The position numbers were made by a program, and so were the translations under genes. Source: Escherichia phage vB_EcoM-PM133. Taken from it: a DNA stretch of 64,000 bases. The stretch lies in the sequence record MZ234052.1; one strand, written 5' to 3'. The notes below the pieces were generated by a model that saw only the letters and a program-made list of their open reading frames with translations, ran no database searches and was not told the DNA's origin. Each line of letters begins with the position of its first letter. The first letter of the stretch is position 1. Below are positions 43,951-63,521 of this stretch, one piece after another.

Positions 43951-44647
<697 letters not shown>

Positions 44648-44659
44648 TTTCACAAAGTT

Positions 44660-44689
44660 GTTTACATACTGATGAGGTAGTGATACTAT
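44660..44689 (+). promoter_or_regulatory. T4-type early (sigma70) promoter
   Basis: -35 TTTACA (44661-44666), 17 nt spacer, extended -10 TGaTACTAT (44681-44689); shares a 23-mer with the next promoter. Confidence 0.6.
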
Positions 44690-44698
44690 TACCTCATC
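44671..44698 (+). repeat. promoter-embedded inverted repeat cassette, copy 1
   Basis: Arms gatgaggta / tacctcatc flank the -10 core gtgatactat; related copies at 45036-45068, 45338-45367 and 63944-63973. Confidence 0.6.
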
Positions 44699-44719
44699 AA
44701 AATTAATTAGGAAAATAAA

Positions 44720-45011
44720 ATGAAAACATTTAAAGAATTTACTTCTACTACAACTACCCCGGTTTCTACCATTACCGAAGCTACTCTTACTTCTGAAGTT
44801 ATTAAAGCAAATAAATGACGAGAAGGTAAACCAATGATTAGTCTGGTTGATGGCGAAGAAATCAAAGGTACTGTTTATCTAGGTGATGGGTGGTCTGCTA
44901 AAAAGGATGGTGCTACAATCGTTATCTCTCCTGCTGAAGAAACTGCGTTGTTTAAAGCTAAACACATTTCTGCGGCACATCTCAAGATTATTGCTAAAAA
45001 TCTTTTGTAAT
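44720..45011 (+). pseudogene. ipI-like internal protein gene interrupted by in-frame TGA (codon 33)
   Basis: ATG at 44720 gives MKTFKEFTSTTTTPVSTITE...KANK, then TGA at 44816-44818, then the same frame continues REGKPMISLVDGEEIKGTVYLGDGWSAKKDG... to TAA at 45009-45011. Confidence 0.55.
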
Positions 45012-45029
45012 AAACAATTTCACAAAGTT

Positions 45030-45059
45030 GTTTACATAGGGTTTTAGTTGTGATACTAT
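45030..45059 (+). promoter_or_regulatory. T4-type early promoter
   Basis: -35 TTTACA (45031-45036), 17 nt spacer, -10 TGaTACTAT (45051-45059). Confidence 0.6.
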
Positions 45060-45093
45060 TACCCTATCAAAACAAAACCAAATGGAAATCAAA

Positions 45094-45327
45094 ATGAAAA
45101 CTTACCAAGAATTTATTGCTGAAACTGCTGATGTAAAAGTTGAGTTTATTTACACTGGCAAGAAAGATAAAATGGGTGAAATGCCTCATGGAGTTCTTCG
45201 TGATGCATTAGATAATTTCGGTCAACTCGCCGCAGAAGATTACGGTGATAAAATTGTTGTTACTGGTCCTGCTGCAGTTATTGAAAAATGGGCAGCAGAA
45301 AATAAATCAATTTTTCGTAAAAAATAA
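45094..45327 (+). CDS. internal-protein-like ORF with capsid targeting sequence
   Basis: ATG at 45094 gives MKTYQEFIAE...; early promoter cassette upstream. Confidence 0.6.
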   Translation: MKTYQEFIAETADVKVEFIYTGKKDKMGEMPHGVLRDALDNFGQLAAEDYGDKIVVTGPAAVIEKWAAENKSIFRKK

Positions 45328-45357
45328 GTTTACTTTTAGATAGGGTAGTGATACTAT
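45328..45357 (+). promoter_or_regulatory. T4-type early promoter
   Basis: -35 TTTACT (45329-45334), 17 nt spacer, -10 TACTAT (45352-45357). Confidence 0.55.
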
Positions 45358-45385
45358 TACCCTATCTACTACTGAGGAGAATAAA

Positions 45386-45571
45386 ATGAAACGTTGTGAA
45401 TTAATTCGAAATGTTGCTATTGCAATTTCTGCTTCCGCTTTCAGTTTTTCAATGTTTGTTGGATTTATATGCGGATTATTGACTACGGCAGAAAATGTTT
45501 TTTCACTTGTAGTAGCATTTTTAATTGGTTTAATTGCTATTGTTATGGATAAAATTTCTAAAGGTGAATAA
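45386..45571 (+). CDS. small hydrophobic membrane protein
   Basis: 61-aa ORF with RBS GAGGAG; two predicted transmembrane segments. Confidence 0.5.
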   Translation: MKRCELIRNVAIAISASAFSFSMFVGFICGLLTTAENVFSLVVAFLIGLIAIVMDKISKGE

Positions 45572-45969
45572 TGAACGTTGAATATTATGTATATGCGGAT
45601 TACGAAAATAATCCGTCTAAAGATGAAGATAATCGTTTAGGTGTAGATGCTTTCGATTCCCCTGCGGCGGCATGGCAATGGGTTGAAAGAACCGATATTC
45701 CTTACCGTTATATTGAAGTGGTTGACCACGCAGGAAACAAGTATCCTAAGGAAGCATATGTTGCTTCCGGGAAGGTAAATTTCCTTTTGTTTGCAGGTGA
45801 TAATTATTATCCCCGTGGTGGGTATACCGATTTAATTGCTAAAGCATTCTCTGAAGATGAACTCCGTGACATTATCAAAGAAAATGAAAACAAACCGATG
45901 GATTCTAATCGCTTTGATTGGTGGCAAATCGTAAATGCTAATACTCACACTATTGTTGATGAAGGCTGA
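45571..45969 (+). CDS. hypothetical protein
   Basis: 132-aa ORF; start overlaps the preceding stop. Confidence 0.55.
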   Translation: MNVEYYVYADYENNPSKDEDNRLGVDAFDSPAAAWQWVERTDIPYRYIEVVDHAGNKYPKEAYVASGKVNFLLFAGDNYYPRGGYTDLIAKAFSEDELRDIIKENENKPMDSNRFDWWQIVNANTHTIVDEG

Positions 45970-45971
45970 TA

Positions 45972-46259
45972 ATGATTCTTTATGCGAAAGTATCATCCAT
46001 TGAAAATGGATATAAATATGATCAAGACGCGGCTAAAGCTTTGATTGATGATTATGGCATTTTAACATGTTTTGAAGTTGAAAAGGTTTACATTGACCGT
46101 TCATCTTCTCAAGTTAAATTAGTGAAGGAAGAACGTAAATTTAATACAGTAAATTTTGATTTCTTTATTGAAACAGAAAAAGGTCCTCTTGAATATGATA
46201 TTTTCAAGAATCCTTTGGGTCTTGAATGCATCGTAAATATGTATTATTATAAATGGTAA
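45972..46259 (+). CDS. hypothetical protein
   Basis: 95-aa ORF immediately upstream of the tRNA cluster. Confidence 0.5.
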   Translation: MILYAKVSSIENGYKYDQDAAKALIDDYGILTCFEVEKVYIDRSSSQVKLVKEERKFNTVNFDFFIETEKGPLEYDIFKNPLGLECIVNMYYYKW

Positions 46260-46356
46260 ATATGCTTTAAGAATTATTTGTTATTATTAACTCATATCGC
46301 ACTGATTAATACCCTCTATCATCAAGGGTTCTTGCTTAAGAGCCTTTGTTAATAAT

Positions 46357-46429
46357 TGGGAATTAGCCAAGTTGGTAAGGCACTGGATTTTGATTCCAGG
46401 ATGCAAAGGTTCGAGTCCTTTATTCCCAG
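46357..46429 (+). tRNA. tRNA-Gln (anticodon UUG)
   Basis: Cloverleaf: acceptor tgggaat/attccca, anticodon stem ctgga/tccag, loop ttTTGat; CCA not encoded. Confidence 0.85.
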
Positions 46430-46430
46430 C

Positions 46431-46517
46431 GCGAGAATGGCCAAATTGGTAAAGGCACAGCACTTAAAATGCTGCGGAATGATTTCCTTGTGGGTTCGAG
46501 TCCCACTTCTCGCACCA
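46431..46517 (+). tRNA. tRNA-Leu (anticodon UAA)
   Basis: Acceptor gcgagaa/ttctcgc, loop ctTAAaa, long variable arm; CCA encoded. Confidence 0.85.
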
Positions 46518-46522
46518 AATTT

Positions 46523-46596
<74 letters not shown>

Positions 46597-46606
46597 ATTT
46601 AATTTA

Positions 46607-46680
46607 CTCCGTGTAGCTCAGTTTGGTAGAGCGTCTGCTTTGGGAGCAGAATGTCGTAGGTTCAAATCCTGCCACGGAGA
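46607..46680 (+). tRNA. tRNA-Pro (anticodon UGG)
   Basis: Acceptor ctccgtg/cacggag, D-arm agctcagtttggtagagc, loop ttTGGga. Confidence 0.85.
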
Positions 46681-46682
46681 CT

Positions 46683-46772
46683 GGAGGCGTGGCAGAGTGG
46701 TTTAATGCACCGGTCTTGAAAACCGGCAGTCGCTCCGGCGACTCATAGGTTCAAATCCTATCGCCTCCGCCA
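46683..46772 (+). tRNA. tRNA-Ser (anticodon UGA)
   Basis: Acceptor ggaggcg/cgcctcc, loop ctTGAaa, long variable arm; CCA encoded. Confidence 0.85.
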
Positions 46773-46777
46773 GTTTT

Positions 46778-46853
46778 GCTGATTTAGCTCAGTAGGTAGA
46801 GCAACTCACTTGTAATGAGAAGGTCGGCGGTTCGATTCCGTCAATCAGCACCA
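46778..46853 (+). tRNA. tRNA-Thr (anticodon UGU)
   Basis: Acceptor gctgatt/aatcagc, loop ctTGTaa; CCA encoded. Confidence 0.8.
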
Positions 46854-46854
46854 A

Positions 46855-46929
46855 GGCCCTGTAGCTGGAAGGTTCAAGCAAGCGACTCATAATCGCCAGA
46901 TGGTGGTTCAATTCCACCCAGGGCCACCA
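46855..46929 (+). tRNA. tRNA-Ile (anticodon CAU, probably lysidine-modified; could score as Met)
   Basis: Acceptor ggccctg/cagggcc, loop ctCATaa; T4-like phages carry an AUA-reading tRNA-Ile at this position. Confidence 0.7.
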
Positions 46930-46938
46930 AATTAATTT

Positions 46939-47025
46939 GGGGAGTTATCCCGTAGAGGTAGCGGTGTGGACTGTAAATTCATTGTCATTGCGACTCGGGT
47001 GGTTCGACTCCACCACTCCCCACCA
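46939..47025 (+). tRNA. tRNA-Tyr (anticodon GUA)
   Basis: Acceptor ggggagt/actcccc, loop ctGTAaa, long variable arm; architecture like bacterial tRNA-Tyr. Confidence 0.7.
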
Positions 47026-47029
47026 ATTT

Positions 47030-47104
47030 GGATGTGTAGCTCAATAGCAGAGCGATCGCCTGTTAAGCGATTGGTTATAGGTTCGAATCCTATCACGTCC
47101 GCCA
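47030..47104 (+). tRNA. tRNA-Asn (anticodon GUU)
   Basis: Acceptor ggatgtg/cacgtcc, D-stem gctc/gagc, anticodon stem atcgc/gcgat, loop ctGTTaa; CCA encoded. Confidence 0.75.
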
Positions 47105-47108
47105 AATA

Positions 47109-47184
47109 CGAGGCATAGCTCAGAAGGAAGAGCAAGGACCTTCTAAGTCCTGGGTCGTAGGTTCGATCCCTACTGCCTCGACCA
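47109..47184 (+). tRNA. tRNA-Arg (anticodon UCU)
   Basis: Acceptor cgaggca/tgcctcg, anticodon stem aggac/gtcct, loop ctTCTaa; CCA encoded. Confidence 0.85.
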
Positions 47185-47500
47185 GACAAGAAGCCGGGTC
47201 GCTACCGGCAAGTCGTCGGACTGATGTTCCCTGTTTAAGGACTGGTATTAATAAATCTTTATGTTTTGTTAATGTCCCCTTATATCACAGCAGAAACGGC
47301 GCACCGAATTATCGATTCGAGGAAATATCTTTGCCGTAAGCCGAGTAGCGTTTTTGACGGAACGTTCGGATATGGTCGAGATATGGCCTTTTAAAAATAT
47401 TGAGTAGCGTCAACTGCTTAATAACCGGGTTCGAATCCCGGCGTTTCGTACAAACACTTGCCTTAGCAGGTGGAACCCCGACAAGGTTGCCGCAAGGCTT
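47185..47500 (+). ncRNA. candidate small stable RNA region (rnaC/rnaD-like) with tRNA-like T-arm
   Basis: No ORF; contains ccgggttcgaatcccgg T-arm-like element; lies between tRNA-Arg and a terminator, where T4 encodes stable RNA species 1 and 2. Confidence 0.3.
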
Positions 47501-47528
47501 AGCCCCGACCGAAAGGTTGGGGCTTTTT
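47501..47528 (+). terminator. rho-independent terminator after the tRNA / stable RNA region
   Basis: Hairpin agccccgaccgaaaggttggggct followed by TTTTT. Confidence 0.7.
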
Positions 47529-47530
47529 AG

Positions 47531-47538
47531 TATAAATA
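47531..47538 (+). promoter_or_regulatory. late promoter TATAAATA
   Basis: Directly after the terminator at 47501-47528 and 37 nt before the ATG at 47575. Confidence 0.5.
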
Positions 47539-47574
47539 AGTATATTAAAACCCCGAATTAAAACAGGAAATAAG

Positions 47575-48048
47575 ATGAAATCATATACTCAATTTTTAAA
47601 TGAAGCGGTGTTAAATGAAGCATCTAGCACTGAAATTCAAGCTGTTGCAAAAGCTGCCATTGCCGCGGGTAAATATTCCTATAAAGATGCTTCCGATGAA
47701 TCACGATTCCAATTTGCTCGTGATATGAAAGCCGAAGGATTTACAGGGAATGCAGTTAGTATGGCTTGGAAAAGTTTAGTTGCTACTGGAGCTGCTTTTG
47801 CAAAGGCTTCAGGTAAACCTGCTCCTAAAGCAGATCCTAAAGTCACACAAGAGAAAAATATTGTTAAAGGAATTATCTCCAAATATGAAGCTATCCTTAA
47901 AGAGCTTTTAGTAATCAAAACTGAAGGCCAAAAGCTAGCTCGTGCTTATAGTTTCAAAGATAACCCACATGTTCACTCTCTTGAGTATGTTGAAGACATC
48001 CAAAAAATTATTAAAGACCGCATTTGGTCTGCTAAACAAATCAAATAA
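47575..48048 (+). CDS. hypothetical protein with internal-protein-like N-terminus
   Basis: 157-aa ORF starting MKSYTQFLNEA; TATAAATA late promoter 37 nt upstream. Confidence 0.55.
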   Translation: MKSYTQFLNEAVLNEASSTEIQAVAKAAIAAGKYSYKDASDESRFQFARDMKAEGFTGNAVSMAWKSLVATGAAFAKASGKPAPKADPKVTQEKNIVKGIISKYEAILKELLVIKTEGQKLARAYSFKDNPHVHSLEYVEDIQKIIKDRIWSAKQIK

Positions 48049-48055
48049 CATTCTT

Positions 48056-48084
48056 AGCCCCGACCAAAAGGTTGGGGCTTTTTG
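48056..48084 (+). terminator. rho-independent terminator
   Basis: Hairpin agccccgaccaaaaggttggggct followed by TTTTT; near-copy of the terminator at 47501. Confidence 0.7.
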
Positions 48085-48217
48085 GTATCTAGGCCTTTCC
48101 GGGCCTCTCTAGACATCATTTAGTTTCTACCCTTTATAATATATTATCCTATCTTTTAATTGCCCCTCCCTGCCCTAGAATTCCCTAAAACTTTTTAAAA
48201 AATTTTTTCACAAAACT

Positions 48218-48248
48218 GTTTACACCCCTGTTCTTCCATGGTACTATA
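48218..48248 (+). promoter_or_regulatory. T4-type early promoter
   Basis: -35 TTTACA (48219-48224) with A/T-rich upstream, -10 TACTAT (48243-48248). Confidence 0.5.
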
Positions 48249-48289
48249 CAACTATCAACTACTGATACAAAAACAACTTGGAGAATGAA

Positions 48290-48553
48290 ATGGATAATTA
48301 CGGCGAACTGTTCAACTTCTTTATGAAATGTGTTTCAGAAGATTTCGGTCGTACAGTGAATGATATTAAAGTTATCGGTCCTGACCATCCGATGTTTGAA
48401 ACCTATGCAGTAATGGGTAATGAAGATGGTCAGTGGTATACTGTAAAGGTTGTGATTAACATGTTCACTGCTGAAGGTTATGTTAAACTGTCTTCTAAAG
48501 TTTACCATGATAACGATGAAATCGCAGAAGAATATTTCAATAATATGAAATAA
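48290..48553 (+). CDS. hypothetical protein
   Basis: ATG at 48290 after RBS GGAG; ORF track begins at an upstream TTG (48278). Confidence 0.5.
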   Translation: MDNYGELFNFFMKCVSEDFGRTVNDIKVIGPDHPMFETYAVMGNEDGQWYTVKVVINMFTAEGYVKLSSKVYHDNDEIAEEYFNNMK

Positions 48554-48622
48554 TTGTGTACAAACGCCAAGGACGGTGTTATTATAGACTTATCAAAACA
48601 AATACAGAAAACGGAGAAATAA

Positions 48623-48799
48623 ATGACTACTTTAATTATTTGGTTCGACGAAAATGAAGAAACATACTGCGTGAACATTGGCGAAAGCCCAATGCCAGAA
48701 TTTGAATCTTCGGATAAAAACTCGGTTGTATCTTGGGCTGAAGGTTATAAAGCAGCAAAAGGCGATGTTGAAATAGTTTACAAACTATCCGGAGTATAA
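48623..48799 (+). CDS. hypothetical small protein
   Basis: 58-aa ORF with RBS ACGGAGAAATAAATG; preferred over the antisense ORF 48636..48824. Confidence 0.4.
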   Translation: MTTLIIWFDENEETYCVNIGESPMPEFESSDKNSVVSWAEGYKAAKGDVEIVYKLSGV

Positions 48800-48842
48800 T
48801 ACTCTCATGGATTTTAAATCTCAATTAACCTAAGGAAATACT

Positions 48843-49436
48843 ATGAACACACTGAAGAAAATTGTTGAGTTTATTCACACTAAACTTGGTTCTGCTATGG
48901 CTAAAAATCTATCTGTCGAAGAACAGTATACTGCTGCAGCAGCAAAACTACTTGATAAAATTAAAGATCTAAAAACTGCTTCTGTTAAATCTATTAACGA
49001 AGAAAAACGTATTCGTGAACTTGTTATCGAAAAGAATCGACAGGCCGAATCAAAAGAGCGTGAAATTCGTAAACTTCTTTCCGAAGGCCAAGATGTAACA
49101 ATGCATGCTAAACTCGGTTTACTATATCGTCGAACAGCTGAGCAGTTGACTACTAAGGCTGACGGTTATGCTGAAATGCGAATTGAAATCGCCAAGAAAG
49201 TAGTTGAGTTAGATGATGCTCGTCAAGAACTTGCGGTTAAATTGGAATATATCCGTGAAACTCGTGCAGCGAATGCCCTTGGAATTAGTACTGCCGATGA
49301 TGTAGTTGAAATTGCAGCACTGACTAAGGTTGATATTGAAGATACCCTTGCTCGAGTTGAAACCTTTAACGGTAATATTTCTGGGGTTGAAACTACCTCT
49401 GCCGATGTTCAGGAATACATTAATTCTCTGAAATAA
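48843..49436 (+). CDS. hypothetical coiled-coil protein
   Basis: 197-aa ORF with RBS AAGGAAA; followed by a hairpin. Confidence 0.55.
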
Positions 49437-49440
49437 TGAT

Positions 49441-49460
49441 AAGGGGCTTCGGCCCCTTAT
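49441..49460 (+). terminator. terminator-like hairpin
   Basis: aaggggcttcggcccctt after the stop at 49436; weak U-tract. Confidence 0.4.
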
Positions 49461-49477
49461 ACTTGGAGTAAATAGGA

Positions 49478-50092
49478 ATGAAAATGAAAATGCAAAGTGA
49501 TTTCAATTCAATGTTTGAAGAGTTCCAAAAACAGGTTGATGTTCCAGACCAATTACTAAATGCTCTTAAACGCATGGCAGAAGGACGTAATTACTATTGG
49601 GGGTCTTCATATGAAACTGATGAAAGCCTTTCCGGAAGATTTTCTAGAGGTAAAAAGTCTTTAATACGTCCTGGAATACTCATTAACAGTATTGAATCAA
49701 TTCATTCATTGACGTGTGATTTTGATGTTGAATTTACTGATTTCATTTCTCCTGAATGGACGGTTTGTTATTTAAACGACGATTTTGATTATCTCGGTGT
49801 TTATAGTTTAAGTGACGCATGGTTTAAACGTAATTTACAAAAGTCAAATTTATTTTATATTGATACTACTGTAAAATTTCAGGGCAAGAAATATTTCTTT
49901 ACTCTTATAGTTGATTCTGAAACGAAGCATGAAAATAAACGTATTCTTAGTAAAAAGAATATCTTAACTATTGTTGATGATCTTTTTGATAAATTTGTAG
50001 AAAATCCCAATTTTGAAAGTGATTTATTACTAGAAAAATTTGTTAAGGAATGTAGAGAATATGTCAAAACCATCACTATACCTTCCAAGTAA
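49478..50092 (+). CDS. hypothetical protein
   Basis: 204-aa ORF; C-terminus KFVKECREYVK overlaps the next gene's start. Confidence 0.55.
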   Translation: MKMKMQSDFNSMFEEFQKQVDVPDQLLNALKRMAEGRNYYWGSSYETDESLSGRFSRGKKSLIRPGILINSIESIHSLTCDFDVEFTDFISPEWTVCYLNDDFDYLGVYSLSDAWFKRNLQKSNLFYIDTTVKFQGKKYFFTLIVDSETKHENKRILSKKNILTIVDDLFDKFVENPNFESDLLLEKFVKECREYVKTITIPSK

Positions 50093-50453
50093 ACCTGTGA
50101 AGTATGAACCAAAGCGTCAGATAATTTCTACTGATGTGTTAATAGGTCCTGTTATACTCATATCATTTGTAATTCTATTGATTATTGGAGGTGTTTTAGA
50201 TGTTATGACTGATATTGATTCTGGCGAAATACTTGTGTTAATGCTAATTCTTCCATTAATAGTTCCACTTTTATTAGTACCCGTAAATTGGGTAGGATAC
50301 TGGTATCAAGGAAGACATTATCGTAAACGTGTACGTGATTGGAAAGCTCAGTGTAAAAAGATTAAAAAGGAACACCGGCTTAAGCTAGATATGTATGAAT
50401 TTGATGAAATTATGAAATTTGTTAAGGAATCACGATGCAAAAGCCAAAACTAA
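50061..50453 (+). CDS. small membrane protein (paralog family)
   Basis: Start chosen at MSKPSLYL; two transmembrane helices; C-terminus FVKESRCKSQN. Confidence 0.5.
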   Translation: MSKPSLYLPSKPVKYEPKRQIISTDVLIGPVILISFVILLIIGGVLDVMTDIDSGEILVLMLILPLIVPLLLVPVNWVGYWYQGRHYRKRVRDWKAQCKKIKKEHRLKLDMYEFDEIMKFVKESRCKSQN

Positions 50454-50797
50454 ATAAAGTCAAATATTCGTTTCCTGAGGCACTATTAATTCTTGCTGTA
50501 TCAGTATTTGCAGCTCTTGCGGGTAGTCTTATTGGATTGTTAATTGACTGTTTTATTTTAAATATCGACGGCACAGTAATTATAACAGAGGTTTGGAGTG
50601 AACTTCGTTTTACTATAGCGATTTCATTATTTTCATTCTTTGGTACCATGTTATATTTTCATTATGATAATTTTAAAATAAATTGGCAAAGAAAAAAGGA
50701 TTACAAAATACAATTAAAGGAATATAATAGCTATATGTCTTATATTGAAAAAGAATCAATGGAAGAGTTTGTGAGTGATTGTAGGAAAATTAAATGA
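50435..50797 (+). CDS. small membrane protein (paralog family)
   Basis: 120-aa ORF; two transmembrane helices; C-terminus EEFVSDCRKIK. Confidence 0.55.
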   Translation: MQKPKLNKVKYSFPEALLILAVSVFAALAGSLIGLLIDCFILNIDGTVIITEVWSELRFTIAISLFSFFGTMLYFHYDNFKINWQRKKDYKIQLKEYNSYMSYIEKESMEEFVSDCRKIK

Positions 50798-51282
50798 TTT
50801 TAAAAACTCGCTGGTATGATTTAGATGATGGGGACGATGGCATTTCAGTTGATAGAGTTGACTGGAATGGTTGTTCTGAAGATATGAAAAATTTGTTGAT
50901 TAGGGAGTTTAGAATGGGATATCAAGCAGCTAAGCCATTTACTGTAACAGATGATAAGTTCGTATGTATTCAAAACGGTCGCGCTAAGTTAACGAATGCT
51001 GATTGGTTCACAGATAAGAAGGTTCTTCTGTGGTATATCATTAGTCTTCCTATATCATCGTTCGTATTTTACTTTTTTATAAAAAATCCAATGGACAGAA
51101 TAGGAGATTGGGTTCTTTTAACTATACTTGTTAATATTTTTACAGCAGCAGTATTATCAGGAATATGGCGTATGTTCATTGAAATGCCATGGCGTTTACG
51201 CAGACAACAAAAGATTTTTGATGAAAAGAAATATACTCAAAATTTAAATAACTTTATCACTGAATGCAGGAAATTAAAATGA
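50794..51282 (+). CDS. small membrane protein (paralog family)
   Basis: 162-aa ORF; transmembrane helices; C-terminus NNFITECRKLK. Confidence 0.55.
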   Translation: MILKTRWYDLDDGDDGISVDRVDWNGCSEDMKNLLIREFRMGYQAAKPFTVTDDKFVCIQNGRAKLTNADWFTDKKVLLWYIISLPISSFVFYFFIKNPMDRIGDWVLLTILVNIFTAAVLSGIWRMFIEMPWRLRRQQKIFDEKKYTQNLNNFITECRKLK

Positions 51283-51711
51283 AAACATTATCAGCTGGTA
51301 TTATCTTTATGACAGAAGATAAAGATTTATTTATGGGACGAGTTACCGGTTCTCGTAAACCTGGAATGATTGCACATCGCTGGGATATTCCAAAGGGGCG
51401 TGTAGAAAGTTCTGATTTGAATGCACTGGAAGCTGCAAAAAGAGAATGCTCAGAAGAGACTGGTTTTATCGATTATAATCCAGACCTTCTAGAAGACTTA
51501 GGTGTATTTAAATATTCTAGTAATAAAGACTTACAGTTATTTTATTATACGATTCCAGTAGAGCATGAGATGTTTAGAAATTGCCATTGCGAGTCTTATT
51601 TTGAAAATAAAGATGGCGTTATGATTCCAGAGATGGATGCTTTTGCTCTTATTCCTCGTACTCAGTGGCAATATGTGATGGGTCCTTCACTTTACCGAAT
51701 AATGAACAGCC

Positions 51712-51719
<8 letters not shown>
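51264..51719 (+). CDS. nudE: Nudix hydrolase NudE
   Basis: 151-aa ORF with Nudix box GRVESSDLNALEAAKRECSEETGF; alternative start at 51279 (ATGA overlap). Confidence 0.8.
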
Positions 51720-52250
<531 letters not shown>

Positions 52251-52254
52251 AGTT

Positions 52255-52284
52255 GTTTACTTTCTCCTAGAATTGTGATAGTAT
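52255..52284 (+). promoter_or_regulatory. T4-type early promoter upstream of denV
   Basis: -35 GTTTAC (52255-52260), 17 nt spacer, -10 TGaTAGTAT (52276-52284). Confidence 0.55.
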
Positions 52285-52309
52285 ATTCACAGTTACTTGG
52301 AGGGATAAA

Positions 52310-52726
52310 ATGACTCGTATTAATTTGACTTTAGTATCTGAACTTGCTGATCAACATTTAATCGCAGAATACCGTGAATTGCCGCGTGTTTTTGGTATAG
52401 TTCGTAAGCATGTGGCAAACGGTAAGCGCGTTAAAGATTTTAAAATATCTTCTAAATTTATTTTAGGTTCTGGTCATGTTACTTTCTTTTACGATAAGTT
52501 AGAATTTTTGCGAAAGCGTCAATTAGACATTATAACGGAATGCTTAAAACGAGGGTTCAGTATAAAAGATACTGAAGTTCCTGACATCAGCGATATTCCA
52601 GTAGAATGGAAAAATGATTATAATCCATGCAAATCAGCTATTAAATTGAGTCAACAACGACTTGATGAAAAAATTTTAATGAAACCACATTGGTATAAGT
52701 ATTACGGTAAAAATATTTACATTTAA
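52310..52726 (+). CDS. denV: endonuclease V, pyrimidine dimer DNA glycosylase
   Basis: 138-aa [32 protein letters not shown]; diverged from recalled T4 endoV at several positions. Confidence 0.9.
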
Positions 52727-52735
52727 AGGAAACAT

Positions 52736-53053
52736 ATGAAAACATATCAAGAATTTATTGCAGAATCTGCCGCAGGACAACGTGTAGAAGGCGGTTATAT
52801 TTGGATTGAACAAGTTGAGCCGCCGAGTCGCACTTCTACAGGTAAATGGAAAATCACTGTTGATGGTCCTGGTGGTAAACGTAGGACTCTTAAAGAAATT
52901 AACGGGTACTATGAAGAAGCTCTTTCAGACGCGGGTACTTATATGATGCAAATTATGATTAAAAACCCAGAAAATCGTTTTGCAGCTAGAGTTTTTCGTC
53001 GTATTGGAAATAAGCTTTACGACGCATATTCTAAAAATTTTCCTAAAGAATAA
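52736..53053 (+). CDS. internal protein with capsid targeting sequence
   Basis: 105-aa ORF starting MKTYQEFIAE; RBS AAAGGAAACATATG. Confidence 0.6.
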   Translation: MKTYQEFIAESAAGQRVEGGYIWIEQVEPPSRTSTGKWKITVDGPGGKRRTLKEINGYYEEALSDAGTYMMQIMIKNPENRFAARVFRRIGNKLYDAYSKNFPKE

Positions 53054-53069
53054 AAATTAAAGGAATCAT

Positions 53070-53543
53070 ATGAAAACATATCAAGAATTTATCACTGAAG
53101 CAGCTATTAATTCTCAAATTATTGCTGAATCTTTTACTGATCTTTTGAAATTTAAAAAAGGTCAAAAAATCACTGCTGTATTGGATGATGGTACAGAAGT
53201 TGAGATGGATGTACAGGGATATAATTATGCAGTAGATGGAAAACTGTATAATAAATCTCATGCTAAATTTGATTCATTTGACGACTTTGTTAATACAGTT
53301 GAAGATGAAAAAACTCGTCGATCCATTGCAACCGGTGATGCTAAGGTTCTTATGGCACATGGTCATGAACGCATTCGCGCTAAACAGAATAAAATGGGCG
53401 AAGATAATTTCGCATTAGTTGGTTATCAATCTGGTAAACAAACTTATGGTTATCAACGTACTGCTACCATGTATAATAAAAATGGTAAAATTGCCTTTGT
53501 AAATAGTAAAGGTTCTATTCAGTACGTTAAATCGTTCAAATAA
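53070..53543 (+). CDS. internal protein with capsid targeting sequence
   Basis: 157-aa ORF starting MKTYQEFITEAA; RBS AAAGGAATCATATG. Confidence 0.6.
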   Translation: MKTYQEFITEAAINSQIIAESFTDLLKFKKGQKITAVLDDGTEVEMDVQGYNYAVDGKLYNKSHAKFDSFDDFVNTVEDEKTRRSIATGDAKVLMAHGHERIRAKQNKMGEDNFALVGYQSGKQTYGYQRTATMYNKNGKIAFVNSKGSIQYVKSFK

Positions 53544-53678
53544 TATGGGAACAGCCTGGACCTCATTTGAGGTATTCCCGTCAACCTGTGATAAGGTCGA
53601 GCCAAAGCGCGGTAATGGGTAATGCAGGAATGGACAACTCATGTGCCATGGAATGGCCCAAAAATTAAGAGAGAAAAT

Positions 53679-54218
53679 ATGAGAACATTTTTAACTGGCC
53701 CGTATCTATCCCTGATGAATGCTTTTACACACCATTCTGATGCTAGAGTAGAAGAAATTTGTAAAAACGAATATATCCCGCCATTTGAAGAATTACTTAA
53801 GCAGTACTGCACACTTCGTATAGATGGTGGACGTCAATCTGGTAAATCAATTGCTGTGACTAACTTTGCTGCTAATTGGCTGTATGATGGCGGAACAGTT
53901 ATTGTTCTTTCTAATACTTCAGCTTACGCTAAAATTTCTGCAAATAACATTAAAAAGGAATTTTCGCGTTATTCTAATGATGATATACGTTTTCGTTTAT
54001 TTACTGATTCTGTACGCAGTTTTATTGGTAATAAAGGAAGCAAGTTCAGAGGTTTATCGCTTTCGCGAATTTTGTATATAATTGATGAGCCTGTCAAATC
54101 TCCTGATATGGATAAGATTTATAGCGTCCATATTGACACTGTACACTACTGCTGTAATAGTAAATGTTGTATTGGTGGTATTACTCGTCCACAGTTTTTC
54201 GTAATCGGAATGCAATAA
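53679..54218 (+). CDS. small P-loop NTPase-like protein
   Basis: Start chosen at MRTFLTGPYL; Walker A GGRQSGKS and Walker B-like ILYIIDEP. Confidence 0.5.
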   Translation: MRTFLTGPYLSLMNAFTHHSDARVEEICKNEYIPPFEELLKQYCTLRIDGGRQSGKSIAVTNFAANWLYDGGTVIVLSNTSAYAKISANNIKKEFSRYSNDDIRFRLFTDSVRSFIGNKGSKFRGLSLSRILYIIDEPVKSPDMDKIYSVHIDTVHYCCNSKCCIGGITRPQFFVIGMQ

Positions 54219-54544
54219 TGACAGACACACAGCTTTTCGAATATCTCTATTTTTCGCCAAAAACTATTAAAAATAAATTGGTAAATCATTTTGAAATTTT
54301 GGCAAATAACAACATTTTAAGCGAATTTTATCCCAAGCAATACAAATTACAAAAAGGTGTATTCAAAGGATGCAGAGTTTTGTGCACTGCTCCTAACGCA
54401 CAGTTAATGAATAAAATTCCATATTTTACCATGGAATTTATTGATGGACCTTTTAAAGGACTAATCACCCAAAGTTTAATGGCATATGATTCTGAGCCAT
54501 TTTTAATTAAAGAACAATCTTGGATAAATTTATTTTCTAATTGA
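54218..54544 (+). CDS. hypothetical protein
   Basis: Start chosen at MTDTQLFEY (ATGA overlap); ORF track extends upstream to 54164. Confidence 0.5.
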
Positions 54545-54551
54545 GGTTTAT

Positions 54552-54914
54552 ATGAAAGCATATCAAATTCTTGAAGGCACACATAAAGGTACTATTTATT
54601 TTGAAGATGGTATTCAAGCACGAATTATTGTCTCTAAAACCTTTAAAGAGGACTCTTTTGTAGACCCAGAAATTTTCTACGGTTTGCATGCTCGTGAAAT
54701 TGAAATTGAGCCACAGCCTACAGTTAAAATTGAAGGTGGTCAACACCTGAACGTTAACGTTCTGCGTCGTGAAACTCTGGAAGATGCAGTTAAGCATCCG
54801 GAAAAATATCCGCAGCTGACCATCCGTGTATCCGGTTATGCAGTTCGCTTTAACTCTCTGACTCCGGAACAGCAGCGCGACGTTATTGCTCGTACCTTTA
54901 CTGAGAGCTTATAA
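54552..54914 (+). CDS. GrcA/YfiD-like autonomous glycyl radical cofactor
   Basis: 120-aa ORF; C-terminus ...[33 protein letters not shown] carries the glycyl-radical motif RVSGY and matches recalled E. coli GrcA. Confidence 0.8.
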
Positions 54915-55135
54915 TGGCAAAGATAATTATTGAAGGTTCTAAAGATGTGCTAAATGCTTTCGCCGAGTGGTTTAGTAATTCAGGCGAACAGCAATTTAAC
55001 GAAGCGTGGAATATGGGTGATATTGATGGAATTTATCCTACTACAGAAATTTCTGTTCAGGGATATGGCATTCATGAACCTATTCGTTTAGTTGAATACG
55101 ATTTATGTACTGGTGAGGAAGTCAAATATGATTGA
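54914..55135 (+). CDS. hypothetical protein
   Basis: 73-aa ORF; ATG overlaps the preceding stop. Confidence 0.45.
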   Translation: MAKIIIEGSKDVLNAFAEWFSNSGEQQFNEAWNMGDIDGIYPTTEISVQGYGIHEPIRLVEYDLCTGEEVKYD

Positions 55136-55394
55136 AGATATTAAAGGTTATAAGCCACATACCGACGAAAAAATCGGTAAAGTAAATGCTATTAAAGACG
55201 CTGAAGTTCGTTTAGGACTTATCTTTGATGCTTTATATGATGAATTCTGGGAAGCACTAGATAATTGCGAAGACTTTGAACTCGCGAAGAATTATGCTGA
55301 AAGCCTCGATCAGTTAGCTATTGCTAAAACGAAACTCAAAGAAGCCAGTATGTGGGCTTGTCGTGCTGTGTTCCAACCAGAGGAAAAATACTAA
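55128..55394 (+). CDS. hypothetical protein
   Basis: Start chosen at [11 protein letters not shown], overlapping the preceding stop. Confidence 0.45.
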
Positions 55395-55672
55395 TGGCTC
55401 AATTAAGCGCAGGGTTTGGTTATGAGTATTATACTGCCCCTCGTCGTGTGTCTGCTGCTCCTAAGAAAATTCAAAGTCTTGATGACTTCCAGGAAGTAGT
55501 CCGTAACGCTTTCCAGGACTATGCACGGTATCTTAAAGAAGATTCACAGGACTGTCTCGAAGAAGATGAAATTGCTTACTATACGCAGCGTCTTGAACAG
55601 CTCAAAAATCTACATGAGGTTCGTGCAGAAGTTTCAAAGTCTATGAATAAATTGATTAGATTTAAAGAATAA
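55394..55672 (+). CDS. hypothetical protein
   Basis: Start chosen at [13 protein letters not shown] (TAATG overlap). Confidence 0.5.
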
Positions 55673-55675
55673 CTG

Positions 55676-55704
55676 TTTACTTTTCCTCTTGACTGTGGTA
55701 TAAT
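55676..55704 (+). promoter_or_regulatory. T4-type early promoter upstream of regB
   Basis: -35 TTTACT (55677-55682), 16 nt spacer, extended -10 TGgTATAAT (55696-55704). Confidence 0.65.
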
Positions 55705-55731
55705 TTTTCTATCAGTTAAGAGGAGAACAAC

Positions 55732-56193
55732 ATGACTATCAATACAGAAGTTTTTATCCGTCGAAATAAGCTTCGTCGTCATTTTGAGTCGGAGTTTCGT
55801 CAAATTAACAATGAGATTCGTGAGGCATCAAAAGCAGCAGGAGTCTCATCGTTTCATCTAAAATATTCTCAACATCTTCTTGATCGTGCAATTCAACGGG
55901 AGATTGATGAGACATATGTTTTTGAATTATTCCATAAAATAAAAGACCATGTTTTAGAAGTTAATGAATTCCTGAGTATGCCTCCGCGTCCTGACATTGA
56001 CGAGGATTTTATTGATGGGGTTGAATATCGTCCTGGACGTTTAGAAATCACAGATGGAAATCTTTGGCTTGGATTTACGGTTTGTAAGCCTAATGAGAAG
56101 TTCAAAGACCCGTCACTTCAATGCAGGATGGCAATTATCAACAGTCGTCGTTTACCAGGAAAGGCTTCTAAAGCAGTAATTAAAACTCAATGA
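55732..56193 (+). CDS. regB: RegB sequence-specific endoribonuclease
   Basis: 153-aa ORF MTINTEVFIRRNKLRRHFESEFRQINNEIREASK; early promoter and RBS GAGGAG upstream. Confidence 0.8.
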   Translation: MTINTEVFIRRNKLRRHFESEFRQINNEIREASKAAGVSSFHLKYSQHLLDRAIQREIDETYVFELFHKIKDHVLEVNEFLSMPPRPDIDEDFIDGVEYRPGRLEITDGNLWLGFTVCKPNEKFKDPSLQCRMAIINSRRLPGKASKAVIKTQ

Positions 56194-56200
56194 GGTAAGC

Positions 56201-56746
56201 ATGAGAAAAGCACTACTCGCTGGTCTATTGGCCATTTCAATGATGGCACATAGCTCCGAGCATACTTTCAGTAATGTCCAACTCGATAACATGCGTTACG
56301 CGTATCAATTCGGGGAACAATTTTCTAAGGATGGAAAATATAAAACACACAAAAATATCCACAAGAGCGGATTGGGTCATATAATGGCTGCTATTTTATG
56401 GCAAGAAAGCTCTGGCGGAGTTAATTTAAAATCTAAAGCAAAGCATCACGCCTACGGAATGTTCCAAAATTATTTGCCTACTATGCGAGCAAGAGTTAAG
56501 GAACTTGGTTATAATATGACCGATGCTGAAATAAAAAGAATGTTGAATAAACGGTCCAATTCAGCTTCCTGGGCGTACATTGAACTTTCTTATTGGTTAA
56601 ATATACATAAGGGCGATATAAGAAAAGCAATATCCTCTTATAATTCGGGATGGAATGTTAAAGCAGGTTCTAAATATGCTTCTGAAGTCCTAGAAAAGGC
56701 TAATTACCTTAAAAATAATAAACTTTTGGAAATAGTAAATGACTAA
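56201..56746 (+). CDS. secreted lytic-transglycosylase-like protein
   Basis: 181-aa ORF with signal peptide MRKALLAGLLAISMMAHS and SLT-like motifs WQESSGG, GMFQ, SYNSGW. Confidence 0.5.
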   Translation: MRKALLAGLLAISMMAHSSEHTFSNVQLDNMRYAYQFGEQFSKDGKYKTHKNIHKSGLGHIMAAILWQESSGGVNLKSKAKHHAYGMFQNYLPTMRARVKELGYNMTDAEIKRMLNKRSNSASWAYIELSYWLNIHKGDIRKAISSYNSGWNVKAGSKYASEVLEKANYLKNNKLLEIVND

Positions 56747-59830: not shown

Positions 59831-59834
59831 CATT

Positions 59835-59858
59835 AGTCTCCTTCGGGAGACTTTTTTC
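59835..59858 (+). terminator. rho-independent terminator
   Basis: Hairpin agtctccttcgggagact followed by TTTTTT. Confidence 0.7.
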
Positions 59859-59867
59859 ATTTTGCCG

Positions 59868-59897
59868 GTTTACTTTCCGTTTGAGCTGTGGTACTAT
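59868..59897 (+). promoter_or_regulatory. T4-type early promoter
   Basis: -35 TTTACT (59869-59874), 17 nt spacer, -10 TGgTACTAT (59889-59897). Confidence 0.55.
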
Positions 59898-59925
59898 ACA
59901 ACTATCGGATAAAGAGGAGAACATC

Positions 59926-60680: not shown

Positions 60681-60721
60681 TTTACAAGTTGACAAGATTA
60701 CTATATCATAATCTTGTCAAC
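60681..60721 (+). promoter_or_regulatory. early promoter overlapped by a 13-bp perfect inverted repeat
   Basis: -35 TTTACA (60681-60686), -10 candidates TATCAT/CATAAT (60703-60710); arms gttgacaagatta (60688-60700) and taatcttgtcaac (60709-60721). Confidence 0.5.
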
Positions 60722-60868
60722 TGCCAAGGAGAAGAGAATGAAAGTTTTGTTTGTTGTGTATGTGATGATTCAATATAATTATCCAATGTTTACTTATAAT
60801 CTGGTGAACAACATTATTGATATTATTCAAAGGAGTATGTAATTGTGGGTGAGTCGAAGAGAATCAAT

Positions 60869-63404: not shown

Positions 63405-63406
63405 TA

Positions 63407-63430
63407 GGGAGCCTTCGGGCTCCCTTTTTT
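63407..63430 (+). terminator. rho-independent terminator after the nucleotidyltransferase-like gene
   Basis: Hairpin gggagccttcgggctccc followed by TTTTTT. Confidence 0.7.
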
Positions 63431-63454
63431 ATTTCAAAAATTTTTCACAAAATT

Positions 63455-63484
63455 GTTTACAAGCATAAAGCTTTATGGTACTAT
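63455..63484 (+). promoter_or_regulatory. T4-type early promoter
   Basis: -35 TTTACA (63456-63461), 17 nt spacer, -10 TGgTACTAT (63476-63484). Confidence 0.6.
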
Positions 63485-63521
63485 ACAACTATCAAAACAA
63501 ACACTTAAACGGAAAAACAAA

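What the first reader, a model, noticed from the sequence alone, without database searches (positions are those of the whole stretch)
44646..45370. Conserved early-promoter cassette with an inverted repeat wrapped around the -10 element
The 14-mer gtgatactattacc recurs at 44680, 45050, 45348 and 63955, each flanked by inverted arms (gatgaggta/tacctcatc; agatagggta/taccctatct; agggta/taccct). The -35 region is also shared: the 23-mer aatttcacaaagttgtttacata is identical at 44646 and 45016. A second family, atggtactatacaactatc, recurs at 48239, 59889 and 63477. The inverted repeats could be operator sites for a phage regulator, RNase or RegB processing hairpins at the 5' ends of early transcripts, or recombination hotspots driving shuffling of the internal-protein genes.
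Basis: seen in the sequence. Interest (0 to 1): 0.45.

Follow-up and report, generated by a model that had tools for sequence, protein, structure and literature searches.

The report
T4 early promoter stem-loop cassettes (PeSLs)
The repeats are copies of a known T4-type phage module, a strong early promoter whose -10 box sits in the loop of a hairpin, and recombination between copies swaps the small injected "internal protein" genes they flank; this is a real feature but already described.

Summary
The window is Escherichia phage vB_EcoM-PM107, a Tequatrovirus. The finding lies in the ipI internal-protein locus, between 57B and trna.4.

**Observation.** All reported repeats exist and are far beyond chance. 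The four copies of GTGATACTATTACC are the extended -10 regions of T4-type early promoters (TTTACW-N17-TACTAT). Each is enclosed by an inverted repeat that folds much better than shuffled sequence.

**Extent.** Three further early promoters in the window have unrelated arms around their -10. So do dozens of promoters in other T4-like genomes, and their arms differ by compensatory changes.

**Second family.** The "second family" promoters have no such hairpin. Each instead sits downstream of a canonical terminator.

**Recombination.** T4 and several metagenomic relatives carry chimeric cassettes. Their crossover points fall inside the shared -10 core or the shared -35 23-mer, exactly where internal-protein ORFs are gained, lost or replaced.

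**Prior work.** This is the published PeSL (promoter-early stem-loop) element of Arbiol 2010 and Comeau 2014. The same papers credit Repoila 1994 with noting it at the T-even IP loci.

The promoter-cassette and recombination readings hold. The operator and 5'-end-processing readings do not.

**Open point.** How the hairpin itself acts remains inferred. The most likely role is a 3'-end or attenuator element in read-through RNA.

Novelty: already known.

The parts
44646..44719 (+). Cassette 1, upstream of ipI. Shared 23-mer 44646-44668; -35 TTTACA 44661-44666; 5' arm GATGAGGTA 44671-44679; TGn plus -10 TACTAT 44684-44689; 3' arm TACCTCATC 44690-44698; leader and Shine-Dalgarno sequence up to the ATG at 44720.
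   Evidence: Fold -17.4 kcal/mol, z = -7.1. Identical cassette upstream of T4 ipI.
45016..45093 (+). Cassette 2, upstream of an extra internal-protein gene (MKTYQEFIAE leader, ATG 45094). 23-mer 45016-45038; -35 TTTACA 45031-45036; outer arms ATAGGGT 45036-45042 and ACCCTAT 45061-45067; -10 TACTAT 45054-45059.
   Evidence: Fold -12.6 kcal/mol, z = -3.4. Its 5' half is found in the T4 chimeric cassette.
45314..45385 (+). Cassette 3, upstream of trna.4 (ATG 45386). -35 TTTACT 45329-45334; arms AGATAGGGTA 45338-45347 and TACCCTATCT 45358-45367; -10 TACTAT 45352-45357; Shine-Dalgarno sequence and RegB-like GGAGAATAAAA 45376-45386.
   Evidence: Fold -18.5 kcal/mol, z = -5.6. Its 3' half is found in the T4 chimeric cassette. 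RegB consensus from PMC3014915.
63921..64000 (+). Cassette 4, at the end of the window, in the nrdC-proximal region. -35 TTTACA 63936-63941; arms AGGGTA 63944-63949 and TACCCT 63965-63970; -10 TACTAT 63959-63964; GGAGAATAAA 63991-64000.
   Evidence: Fold -16.1 kcal/mol, z = -5.2. The downstream gene starts at record position 1.
52256..52309 (+). Early promoter between lysozyme e and denV, with unrelated arms AATTGTGA 52271-52278 and TCACAGTT 52287-52294 (one G.U pair) around the -10 TAGTAT 52279-52284.
   Evidence: Fold -10.3 kcal/mol, z = -2.8. Related to the T4 cassette upstream of ipIII.
55676..55720 (+). Early promoter with arms CTTGACTG 55688-55695 and CAGTTAAG 55713-55720 (one G.U pair) around the -10 TATAAT 55699-55704.
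   Evidence: Fold -8.4 kcal/mol, z = -3.3 on the + strand, but only -2.6 kcal/mol, z = -0.1 on the - strand.
60681..60722 (+). Early promoter with a perfect 14-bp inverted repeat, 60687-60700 with 60709-60722, around the -10 TATCAT 60704-60709.
   Evidence: Fold -17.5 kcal/mol, z = -7.7.
48192..48256 (+). Second-family early promoter (-35 at 48219, -10 at 48242-48247) with no hairpin around the -10. A canonical terminator lies upstream at 48056-48079.
   Evidence: z = +0.45. Terminator.
59835..59906 (+). Canonical terminator 59835-59852 with a T-run, directly followed by a second-family promoter (-35 at 59869, -10 at 59892-59897).
   Evidence: Hairpin around the -10 is marginal, z = -1.5.
63406..63493 (+). 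Canonical terminator 63406-63425 with a T-run, directly followed by a second-family promoter (-35 at 63456, -10 at 63479-63484).
   Evidence: z = -0.12.

Best explanation
Each copy is a PeSL-type composite regulatory cassette of a T4-like phage, that is, a promoter-early stem-loop.

**The promoter.** It is a strong host sigma-70 early promoter with these parts:
- an A/T-rich upstream block;
- a -35 GTTTAC;
- a 17-nt spacer;
- a TGn extended -10 TACTAT;
- a conserved start region ATCAAAAC;
- then a Shine-Dalgarno sequence and ATG.

**The hairpin.** The two arms of the inverted repeat occupy the only sequence-free segments of this compact intergenic module. These are the -35/-10 spacer and the stretch from the -10 to just past the start site. 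The -10 therefore ends up in the loop.

**Shown here:**
- The hairpins are far more stable than chance.
- They occur at many promoters with unrelated arm sequences.
- Pairing is maintained by compensatory and G.U changes across T4-like genomes.
- Non-allelic cassettes have recombined within their shared -10 core or -35 block, exactly at the points where internal-protein ORFs are present, absent or replaced.

**Inferred:**
- The cassette's own transcript starts about 7 nt after the -10 and cannot form the hairpin.
- The hairpin therefore forms only in RNA that reads through from the upstream gene.
- There it most likely marks or protects the 3' end of the upstream transcription unit. It would act as an attenuator, terminator or exonuclease barrier and so insulate neighbouring early units.
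- Canonical terminators do this job at the promoters that lack the hairpin.

**Consequence.** The cassettes repeat 14 to about 60 bp of near-identical sequence every few hundred bases. This makes them substrates for homologous recombination, which inserts, deletes and swaps the ORFs between them, each arriving with its own promoter.
For: **Identity of the locus.**
- The window is 100% identical to Escherichia phage vB_EcoM-PM107, and the region has the order 57A-57B-ipI-trna.4-tRNAs.
- The consensus TTTACW-N17-TAYWAT for PST/T4 PeSLs comes from PMC4122927.

**Hairpin stability.**
- 7 of 10 early promoters in the window fold with z between -2.8 and -7.7.
- 36 of 71 unique promoter-like 39-mers from 57B-linked loci have z < -2.5. 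Intragenic regex hits sit near z = 0.
- Among exact matches to GTTTAC-N15-TGATACTAT in IMG/VR, the rows with z < -4 are all followed by a Shine-Dalgarno sequence and look like T4-type early promoters. Most other matches sit near z = 0. The contigs themselves were not classified.

**Covariation.**
- Arm pairs include AGGGCTAT/ATAGCCCT against AGGGTTAT/ATAACCCT, and also AGGTCTATAG/CTATAGACCT, GTGTAGGAGC/GCTCCTACAC and AAGGCCAT/ATGGCCTT.
- On an unselected ungapped alignment of 41 promoters, a fixed-register test gives 52.9% of cells paired against 32-44% for slid partners. The covariation score is 0.203 against 0.08-0.12, and 2 of 500 shuffles reach it.

**Complementary distribution with terminators.**
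- In the window, 3 of 3 hairpin-less promoters have an upstream GC-rich terminator with a T-run, against 0 of 7 hairpin promoters.
- Across 172 instances the counts are 2/74 against 26/98, Fisher p = 1.4e-5.
- At cluster level the counts are 0/28 against 23/80, p = 8e-4.

**Recombination.**
- The T4 cassette upstream of trna.4 equals the 5' half of window cassette 2 joined to the 3' half of cassette 3, and T4 lacks the ORF between them.
- L035 lacks ipI, with 57B joined to cassette 2 through the shared 23-mer.
- L028 and L019 carry cassette chimeras and a duplicated core.
- L003/L004 and L034 each have a different internal-protein ORF in the same slot between the flanking cassettes.

**Literature.**
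- One RB49 stem-loop terminated transcription in a lacZ reporter.
- A crossover was mapped in the loop.
- PeSL-like elements were noted at both T-even IP loci (PMC2839356).
Against: - **No U-tract.** None follows the 3' arm. The flanks are ATCAAAAUUAAUU, CAAAACAAAACC and ACUACUGAGG. These are therefore not canonical intrinsic terminators.
- **Indirect termination evidence.** The only published termination assay used a GC-rich RB49 stem, not these AT-richer T-even stems.
- **No end mapping.** No mapped 5' or 3' RNA ends were available for this locus. The T4 GenBank and RefSeq records annotate no promoters here.
- **Strand test inconclusive.** G.T against A.C mismatches inside arms, which should favour the sense strand if RNA matters, came out 9 against 3, p = 0.15.
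- **Terminator association may reflect descent.** It weakens with coarser clustering (p = 0.058 at Hamming distance 8 or less; uninformative at 12 or less) and could partly reflect descent of whole cassette families.
- **Many promoters have neither element.** 72 of the 172 instances have neither a hairpin nor a canonical terminator.
- **Crossover position.** Crossovers at the -10 core may only reflect that it is the longest identical stretch, not any special activity of the hairpin.
Confidence: 0.78

Rival explanations
1. The inverted repeat acts at the DNA level. A hairpin or cruciform in single-stranded or supercoiled DNA would expose the -10 to tune or shut off the promoter, or would attract structure-specific nucleases such as T4 endonuclease VII that start recombination.
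For: - Crossovers in chimeric cassettes fall in the loop/-10 core.
- Arbiol et al. mapped one RB49 crossover in the loop and saw the stem-loops block sequencing of single-stranded template.
- Hairpins are also predicted on the minus strand for most copies.
- Hinton's review notes that the mechanism of early-promoter shut-off is unknown.
Against: - Arms of 5-10 bp separated by 6-18 nt are poor candidates for cruciform extrusion from duplex DNA (general knowledge of cruciform energetics, not tested here).
- Several stems depend on G.U pairs and are much weaker on the minus strand, for example 55676 at -8.4 against -2.6 and 63936 at -16.1 against -10.5.
- The complementary distribution with RNA terminators is not predicted by a DNA-level role.
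Confidence: 0.15
2. The inverted repeats are operators bound by a dimeric phage or host regulator that controls early promoters.
For: Dyad symmetry centred on the -10 is typical of repressor operators. Four copies in this window share RGGTA...TACCY.
Against: - Other early promoters in the same genome carry unrelated arms at the same position: TTGTGA/TCACA, CTTGACTG/CAGTTAAG and GTTGACAAGATT/AATCTTGTCAAC.
- Across genomes the arms change by compensatory substitutions, while loop size and register vary.
- Pairing is what is conserved, not a sequence.
Confidence: 0.03
3. The hairpins are RNase or RegB processing or stabilising structures at the 5' ends of the transcripts made from these same promoters.
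For: Cassettes 3 and 4 contain GGAGAATAAA(A), which matches the RegB consensus GGAGRAYARAA.
Against: - With sigma-70 geometry the start lies about 7 nt after the -10, in the last bases of the 3' arm. The 5' arm is therefore not transcribed from this promoter (inference).
- The GGAG sites are in the Shine-Dalgarno sequence, 10-25 nt downstream of the hairpin.
- RNA structure is reported to protect against RegB, not recruit it.
Confidence: 0.02
4. The inverted repeat has no function of its own. It would be a by-product of the partly palindromic extended -10 core and of repeated gene conversion among cassettes.
For: - The inner pairs (AGTG/TATT, or AT/AT) use promoter-consensus bases.
- Chimeric cassettes with broken hairpins exist and persist, with MFE of -7.0 and -4.9 in L019 and L028.
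- Many early promoters have no hairpin.
Against: - Arms lying wholly outside the consensus pair in dozens of unrelated sequence versions.
- z-scores reach -7 or beyond against roughly 0 for most other matches of the same promoter pattern.
- There are compensatory changes.
- There is a non-random relation to terminators.
Confidence: 0.05

Closest known systems
PeSLs (promoter-early stem-loops) of the T4-like phages RB49/phi1 (Arbiol et al. 2010, PMC2839356)
   Same: - An intergenic composite of an A/T-rich block, -35, -10, a stem-loop, a Shine-Dalgarno sequence and ATG.
- The stem-loop is commonly between the -35 and -10 or overlapping the -10.
- The elements are repeated across hyperplastic regions.
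- Recombination between copies removes or inserts the ORF in between, and one crossover was mapped in the loop.
   Different: - RB49/phi1 promoters are near-perfect TTGACA/TATAAT and their stems are polyG/polyC rich.
- Here the promoters are T4-type (GTTTAC, TGn-TACTAT) and the stems are AT-richer with G.U pairs.
- The authors themselves call the T-even IP-locus elements analogues, not homologues.
- Terminator activity was shown only for an RB49 stem.
PeSLs of the PST/T4 pair (Comeau, Arbiol, Krisch 2014, PMC4122927)
   Same: Same genus. Same promoter consensus TTTACW-N17-TAYWAT. Association with indels, including five internal-protein differences between PST and T4.
   Different: [quoted passage not shown]
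- The copies here, and many in other Tequatroviruses, wrap the -10 itself.
- The upstream-terminator arrangement corresponds to the window's second family.
Conserved untranslated blocks at the two T-even internal-protein loci (Repoila et al. 1994, EMBO J; cited in PMC2839356 and PMC4122927, original not readable here)
   Same: The same loci (ipI, and ipII/ipIII). Variable ORFs share a capsid-targeting leader, flanked by conserved promoter-containing sequences proposed to mediate shuffling.
   Different: None that I could establish. This appears to be the same phenomenon seen in a newer isolate.
Rho-independent (intrinsic) terminators
   Same: A stable RNA hairpin at the end of a transcription unit, with a distribution complementary to true terminators in these genomes.
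   Different: - There is no U-tract after the stem.
- The stems are mostly less GC-rich.
- They overlap a promoter.
Integron attC / gene-cassette systems (an analogy raised in the PeSL papers)
   Same: Short repeated structured sites flank small adaptive ORFs, and circular intermediates (mini-circles) have been reported for PeSLs.
   Different: There is no dedicated integrase. Exchange is attributed to general homologous recombination. Each cassette brings its own promoter.

Membership tests
PeSL (promoter-early stem-loop cassette of T4-like phages) | Sigma-70-type early promoter with -35 and -10 boxes about 17 nt apart (for T4/PST: TTTACW-N17-TAYWAT) | tested here: met
   TTTACA or TTTACT, N17, TACTAT at all four copies, plus TGn. 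Consensus.
PeSL (promoter-early stem-loop cassette of T4-like phages) | [quoted passage not shown] | tested here: met
   For example gatttaaaataatttcacaaagttg before the -35 of cassette 1, containing the 57B stop codon at 44645-44647.
PeSL (promoter-early stem-loop cassette of T4-like phages) | A sequence able to form a stable stem-loop within or next to the promoter (between -35 and -10, or overlapping the -10) | tested here: met
   z = -3.4 to -7.1 for the four copies. Arms covary across genomes.
PeSL (promoter-early stem-loop cassette of T4-like phages) | Shine-Dalgarno sequence and start codon of the downstream gene at the 3' end of the element | tested here: met
   ATG at 44720, 45094, 45386 and record position 1, each preceded by a Shine-Dalgarno-like sequence.
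PeSL (promoter-early stem-loop cassette of T4-like phages) | Located in hyperplastic regions and associated with insertion, deletion or replacement of the flanked ORFs | tested here: met
   Chimeric cassettes and alternative ORF content at the ipI locus in T4, KAW1E185, PYps55T, L004, L034, L035, L028 and L019.
PeSL (promoter-early stem-loop cassette of T4-like phages) | Promoter activity in vivo | not testable with these tools
   Needs a reporter assay or 5'-end mapping. No promoter features are annotated in the T4 records.
PeSL (promoter-early stem-loop cassette of T4-like phages) | Stem-loop attenuates or terminates upstream transcription | not testable with these tools
   Only indirect support: the complementary distribution with canonical terminators. 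There is no U-tract.
PeSL (promoter-early stem-loop cassette of T4-like phages) | Formation of mini-circles by recombination between neighbouring copies | not testable with these tools
   Needs inverse PCR on infected cells or virions.
Intrinsic terminator | GC-rich hairpin immediately followed by a U-tract | tested here: not met
   The terminator scan reports none at the four cassettes. The 3' flanks are A-rich.
Repressor operator | A conserved dyad-symmetric recognition sequence shared by the regulated promoters | tested here: not met
   Arms are unrelated between promoters of one genome and covary between genomes.
RegB cleavage site | Unpaired GGAG (consensus GGAGRAYARAA) in an intergenic translation-initiation region | tested here: inconclusive
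   The motif is present at 45376-45386 and 63991-64000, but in the Shine-Dalgarno sequence and not in the inverted repeat. Cleavage is untestable here.

The most novel reading that the evidence does not exclude
The hairpins that wrap the -10 might be a distinct, U-tract-less class of transcription-unit boundary that functionally replaces intrinsic terminators in Tequatrovirus early regions. They could work by pausing, by Rho- or RNase E-coupled 3'-end formation, or by protecting ends from exonucleases. Alternatively, they could act on the non-template DNA strand to modulate the promoter that contains them, for instance contributing to the still unexplained shut-off of T4 early promoters. The near-exclusive distribution of hairpins and canonical terminators found here (2/74 against 26/98) has, to my knowledge, not been quantified before and fits the first version.
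Probability: 0.12. Interest if true: 0.5.

Novelty: already known. Interest (0 to 1): 0.15.

Why it matters
The cassettes explain how T4-like phages quickly exchange small injected anti-defence proteins, such as IPI against GmrSD and IPIII against an unknown system. Each swapped gene arrives with a ready-made strong promoter. That is relevant to host-range evolution and to engineering therapeutic phages.

This is established knowledge, so the present window adds only another example. It also adds a modest quantitative point: hairpins around the -10 and canonical terminators are nearly mutually exclusive upstream of early genes.

Tried and rejected
1. **Strand-asymmetry test.** I counted G.T against A.C mismatches inside arms to decide between an RNA-level and a DNA-level role. 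The first, naive count (16 against 19) was contaminated by chance one-pair extensions and likely non-T4 contigs. The stricter version gave 9 against 3, p = 0.15. The result is inconclusive.
2. **Single-register covariation test.** It is significant but modest, because different promoter families use different registers and loop sizes. Register-free fold z-scores are more informative.
3. **Experimental start sites.** T4 RefSeq and GenBank annotate no promoters at this locus. Miller 2003 and Repoila 1994 are not in the held library. A literature search for T4 start-site mapping found nothing usable.
4. **Rfam.** The scan of 44000-64000 found only tRNAs.
5. **Roadblock model, rejected.** In this model the upstream polymerase would be released by hairpin formation on colliding with polymerase bound at the promoter. 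By the time the 3' arm leaves the exit channel, the elongating enzyme is already past the promoter.
6. **Cruciform extrusion from duplex DNA, considered unlikely.** The arms are short and the spacers are long. This rests on general knowledge and was not tested.
7. **Whether cassette 4 precedes another internal-protein gene.** It does not. The downstream gene, at the start of the record, is a 322-aa protein annotated as thioredoxin.
Full report
**Source and context.** The 2.5 kb around the finding is 100% identical to Escherichia phage vB_EcoM-PM107 (MZ234042, Tequatrovirus). It matches 877 phage records, mostly T4-like coliphages. The window corresponds to record positions 105417-169416. The gene order is gene 1 (dNMP kinase), 57A, 57B (44189-44647), ipI, an extra internal-protein (IP) gene, trna.4 and the tRNA cluster. 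The finding therefore sits in the ipI locus, one of the two polymorphic IP loci of T-even phages.

**Checking the observation.**
- GTGATACTATTACC is exact at 44680, 45050, 45348 and 63955.
- The 23-mer is exact at 44646 and 45016.
- The second family lies at 48238, 59888 (one mismatch) and 63475, which is 1-2 nt from the reported coordinates.
- The inverted arms are as described for three copies.
- The copy at 45050 has wider-spaced arms, ATAGGGT and ACCCTAT.
- Folding the 39 nt around each -10 gives -17.4, -12.6, -18.5 and -16.1 kcal/mol, with z-scores of -7.1, -3.4, -5.6 and -5.2. No shuffle out of 200 folds as well.

**What the copies are.** A regex scan of the window finds ten clear T4-type early promoters on the + strand, with -35 boxes starting at 44661, 45031, 45329, 48219, 52256, 55676, 59869, 60681, 63456 and 63936.
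- All fit TTTACW-N17-TAYWAT, the consensus published for PST/T4.
- Each has a TGn extended -10 and an A/T-rich upstream block, followed by a Shine-Dalgarno sequence and ATG 30-40 nt downstream.
- The 23-mer is the upstream block plus the -35.

**The hairpin is general, not specific to one repeat family.**
- Three further promoters carry unrelated arms around their -10:
  - 52256 has AATTGTGA/TCACAGTT.
  - 55676 has CTTGACTG/CAGTTAAG.
  - 60681 has a perfect 14-bp stem with z = -7.7.
- In 36 IMG/VR loci found through 57B, 36 of 71 unique promoter-like 39-mers have z < -2.5. Intragenic regex hits sit near zero.
- Exact matches to GTTTAC-N15-TGATACTAT across IMG/VR separate by fold score.
  - The rows with z < -4 are all followed by a Shine-Dalgarno sequence and look like T4-type early promoters.
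  - Most other matches sit near z = 0, which gives a rough built-in control.
  - I did not classify the contigs.
- Arms differ by compensatory changes. Examples are AGGGCTAT/ATAGCCCT against AGGGTTAT/ATAACCCT, and also AGGTCTATAG/CTATAGACCT, GTGTAGGAGC/GCTCCTACAC and AAGGCCAT/ATGGCCTT.
- Orthologous copies differ by wobble-preserving changes, such as TACCTCATC to TATCTCATC and GATAGGG to GATGGGG.
- On an unselected, ungapped alignment of 41 promoters, a single fixed register gives 52.9% of cells paired against 32-44% when partners are slid. The covariation score is 0.203 against 0.08-0.12, and 2 of 500 shuffles reach the observed values.

**Recombination at the cassettes.**
- T4 has only two cassettes here. 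The one upstream of ipI equals window cassette 1.
- The one upstream of trna.4 has the 5' half of cassette 2 and the 3' half of cassette 3, joined within the shared gtgatactattaccctatc. T4 lacks the IP ORF that lies between cassettes 2 and 3 in the window.
- L035 lacks ipI, with 57B joined to cassette 2 through the shared 23-mer.
- PYps55T and L004 carry a different 85-aa IP in the ipI slot, and L034 carries a 102-aa one.
- L028 and L019 carry chimeras of 5' and 3' halves from different cassettes, with weakened hairpins, and L019 has a duplicated core.
- The three cassettes of T4's second IP locus (e-ipIII-ipII-denV) also have the -10 between inverted arms.

**Relation to terminators.**
- No U-tract follows any of the 3' arms, and the terminator scan finds none there.
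- The three promoters without a hairpin around the -10 are each preceded by a canonical GC-rich tetraloop terminator with a T-run, at 48056-48079, 59835-59852 and 63406-63425.
- Across 172 promoter instances that are followed by a Shine-Dalgarno sequence and ATG, a terminator lies within 150 nt upstream of 2 of 74 hairpin promoters and 26 of 98 others (p = 1.4e-5).
- After clustering, the counts are 0/28 against 23/80 (p = 8e-4) at Hamming distance 4 or less, and 0/16 against 13/59 (p = 0.058) at 8 or less.
- Relatedness is only crudely controlled, so I treat this as supportive and not decisive.

**Mechanism.**
- Shown: the anatomy, the excess stability, the covariation and the chimeric junctions.
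- Inferred, step 1: transcripts from each cassette start about 7 nt after the -10, inside the last bases of the 3' arm. They therefore cannot form the hairpin.
- Inferred, step 2: the hairpin then exists only in RNA reading through from upstream, or in single-stranded DNA.
- Inferred, step 3: given the terminator complementarity, the most likely role is a boundary or 3'-end element for the upstream unit.
- Inferred, step 4: in these 70-nt intergenic spaces, the spacer and the start-proximal region are the only places free to carry arms. That would explain why the -10 ends up in the loop.
- A test for sense-strand bias (G.T against A.C inside arms) gave 9 against 3, which is not significant.

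**Comparison with what is known.**
- Arbiol et al. 2010 defined PeSLs in RB49/phi1. They noted that stem-loops are most commonly between the -35 and -10 or overlapping the -10.
- They showed terminator activity for one stem, promoter activity, mini-circles and a crossover in the loop.
- They stated that Repoila et al. 1994 had seen PeSL-like, AT-richer analogues based on T4 early promoters at both T-even IP loci.
- Comeau et al. 2014 extended PeSLs to PST/T4.
- Recombination between short homologies that deletes ipIII has been seen in experimental evolution of T4.
- Every sequence-level defining feature of a PeSL is met here. The functional features cannot be tested with these tools.

- The promoter-cassette and recombination-hotspot readings are supported.
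- The operator reading is contradicted by arm diversity.
- The 5'-end processing reading is contradicted by geometry.
- RegB-type GGAG motifs exist, but in the Shine-Dalgarno sequences.

**Overall verdict.** The feature is real and non-random, and it is already described. Interest is low. The only mildly new element is the quantified mutual exclusion between hairpins around the -10 and canonical terminators.

Noticed in passing
window 44720-45010 (stop codon at 44816-44818): The ipI gene has an in-frame TGA where T4 has GGA (Gly32), plus a 3-nt insertion adding a Thr codon. It is annotated as two small ORFs of 32 and 58 aa. IPI, the GmrSD inhibitor, is probably non-functional in this phage, unless this is a sequencing error shared with PM108.
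   Followed up: partly
window 51756-53543: The second internal-protein locus is rearranged relative to T4. Lysozyme e is followed directly by a hybrid promoter cassette (-35 at 52256) and denV (52310-52726). Two ORFs whose 5' ends encode an MKTYQEFI-type leader lie after denV, at 52736-53053 and 53070-53543, behind T4 ipII/ipIII-type translation leaders but without their own promoter cassette. The T4 order is e-ipIII-ipII-denV.
   Followed up: partly
window 47498-47533 and 48053-48088: Two 94%-identical copies of a 36-nt intrinsic terminator (AGCCCCGACC-loop-GGTTGGGGCT plus a T-run) flank a 157-aa ORF at 47575-48048. Its N-terminus, MKSYTQFLNEA, resembles the internal-protein capsid-targeting leader. 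This looks like an ORF cassette bounded by repeated terminators instead of repeated promoters.
   Followed up: no
window 48538-48598: A degenerate copy of the promoter cassette (GTGTAC...TATTAT...TATCAAAA) overlaps the end of ORF 48278-48553. It resembles the degraded 'half PeSLs' described by Comeau et al. 2014.
   Followed up: no
window 45376-45386 and 63991-64000: The Shine-Dalgarno regions of cassettes 3 and 4 read GGAGAATAAA(A), a full match to the published strong RegB cleavage consensus GGAGRAYARAA.
   Followed up: partly
window 60687-60722: A perfect 14-bp inverted repeat around the -10 TATCAT contains TTGACA in its 5' arm, and the consensus scan calls promoter-like sites on both strands here.
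   Followed up: no
L028 4473-4530, L028 4806-4860, L019 4847-4900, L019 5178-5240: Metagenomic T4-like contigs carry chimeric cassettes, with the 5' arm of one cassette type joined to the 3' arm of another. Their hairpins are weakened or broken. In L019 the core gatactattacctcatcaa is tandemly duplicated, which suggests recent non-allelic exchange or slippage at the -10 core.
   Followed up: partly
window 48056-48079, 59835-59852, 63406-63425 against the hairpin promoters: Canonical terminators and hairpins around the -10 are almost mutually exclusive upstream of early genes. Across T4-like loci the counts are 2/74 against 26/98. I did not find this quantified in the PeSL papers I could read.
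   Followed up: yes
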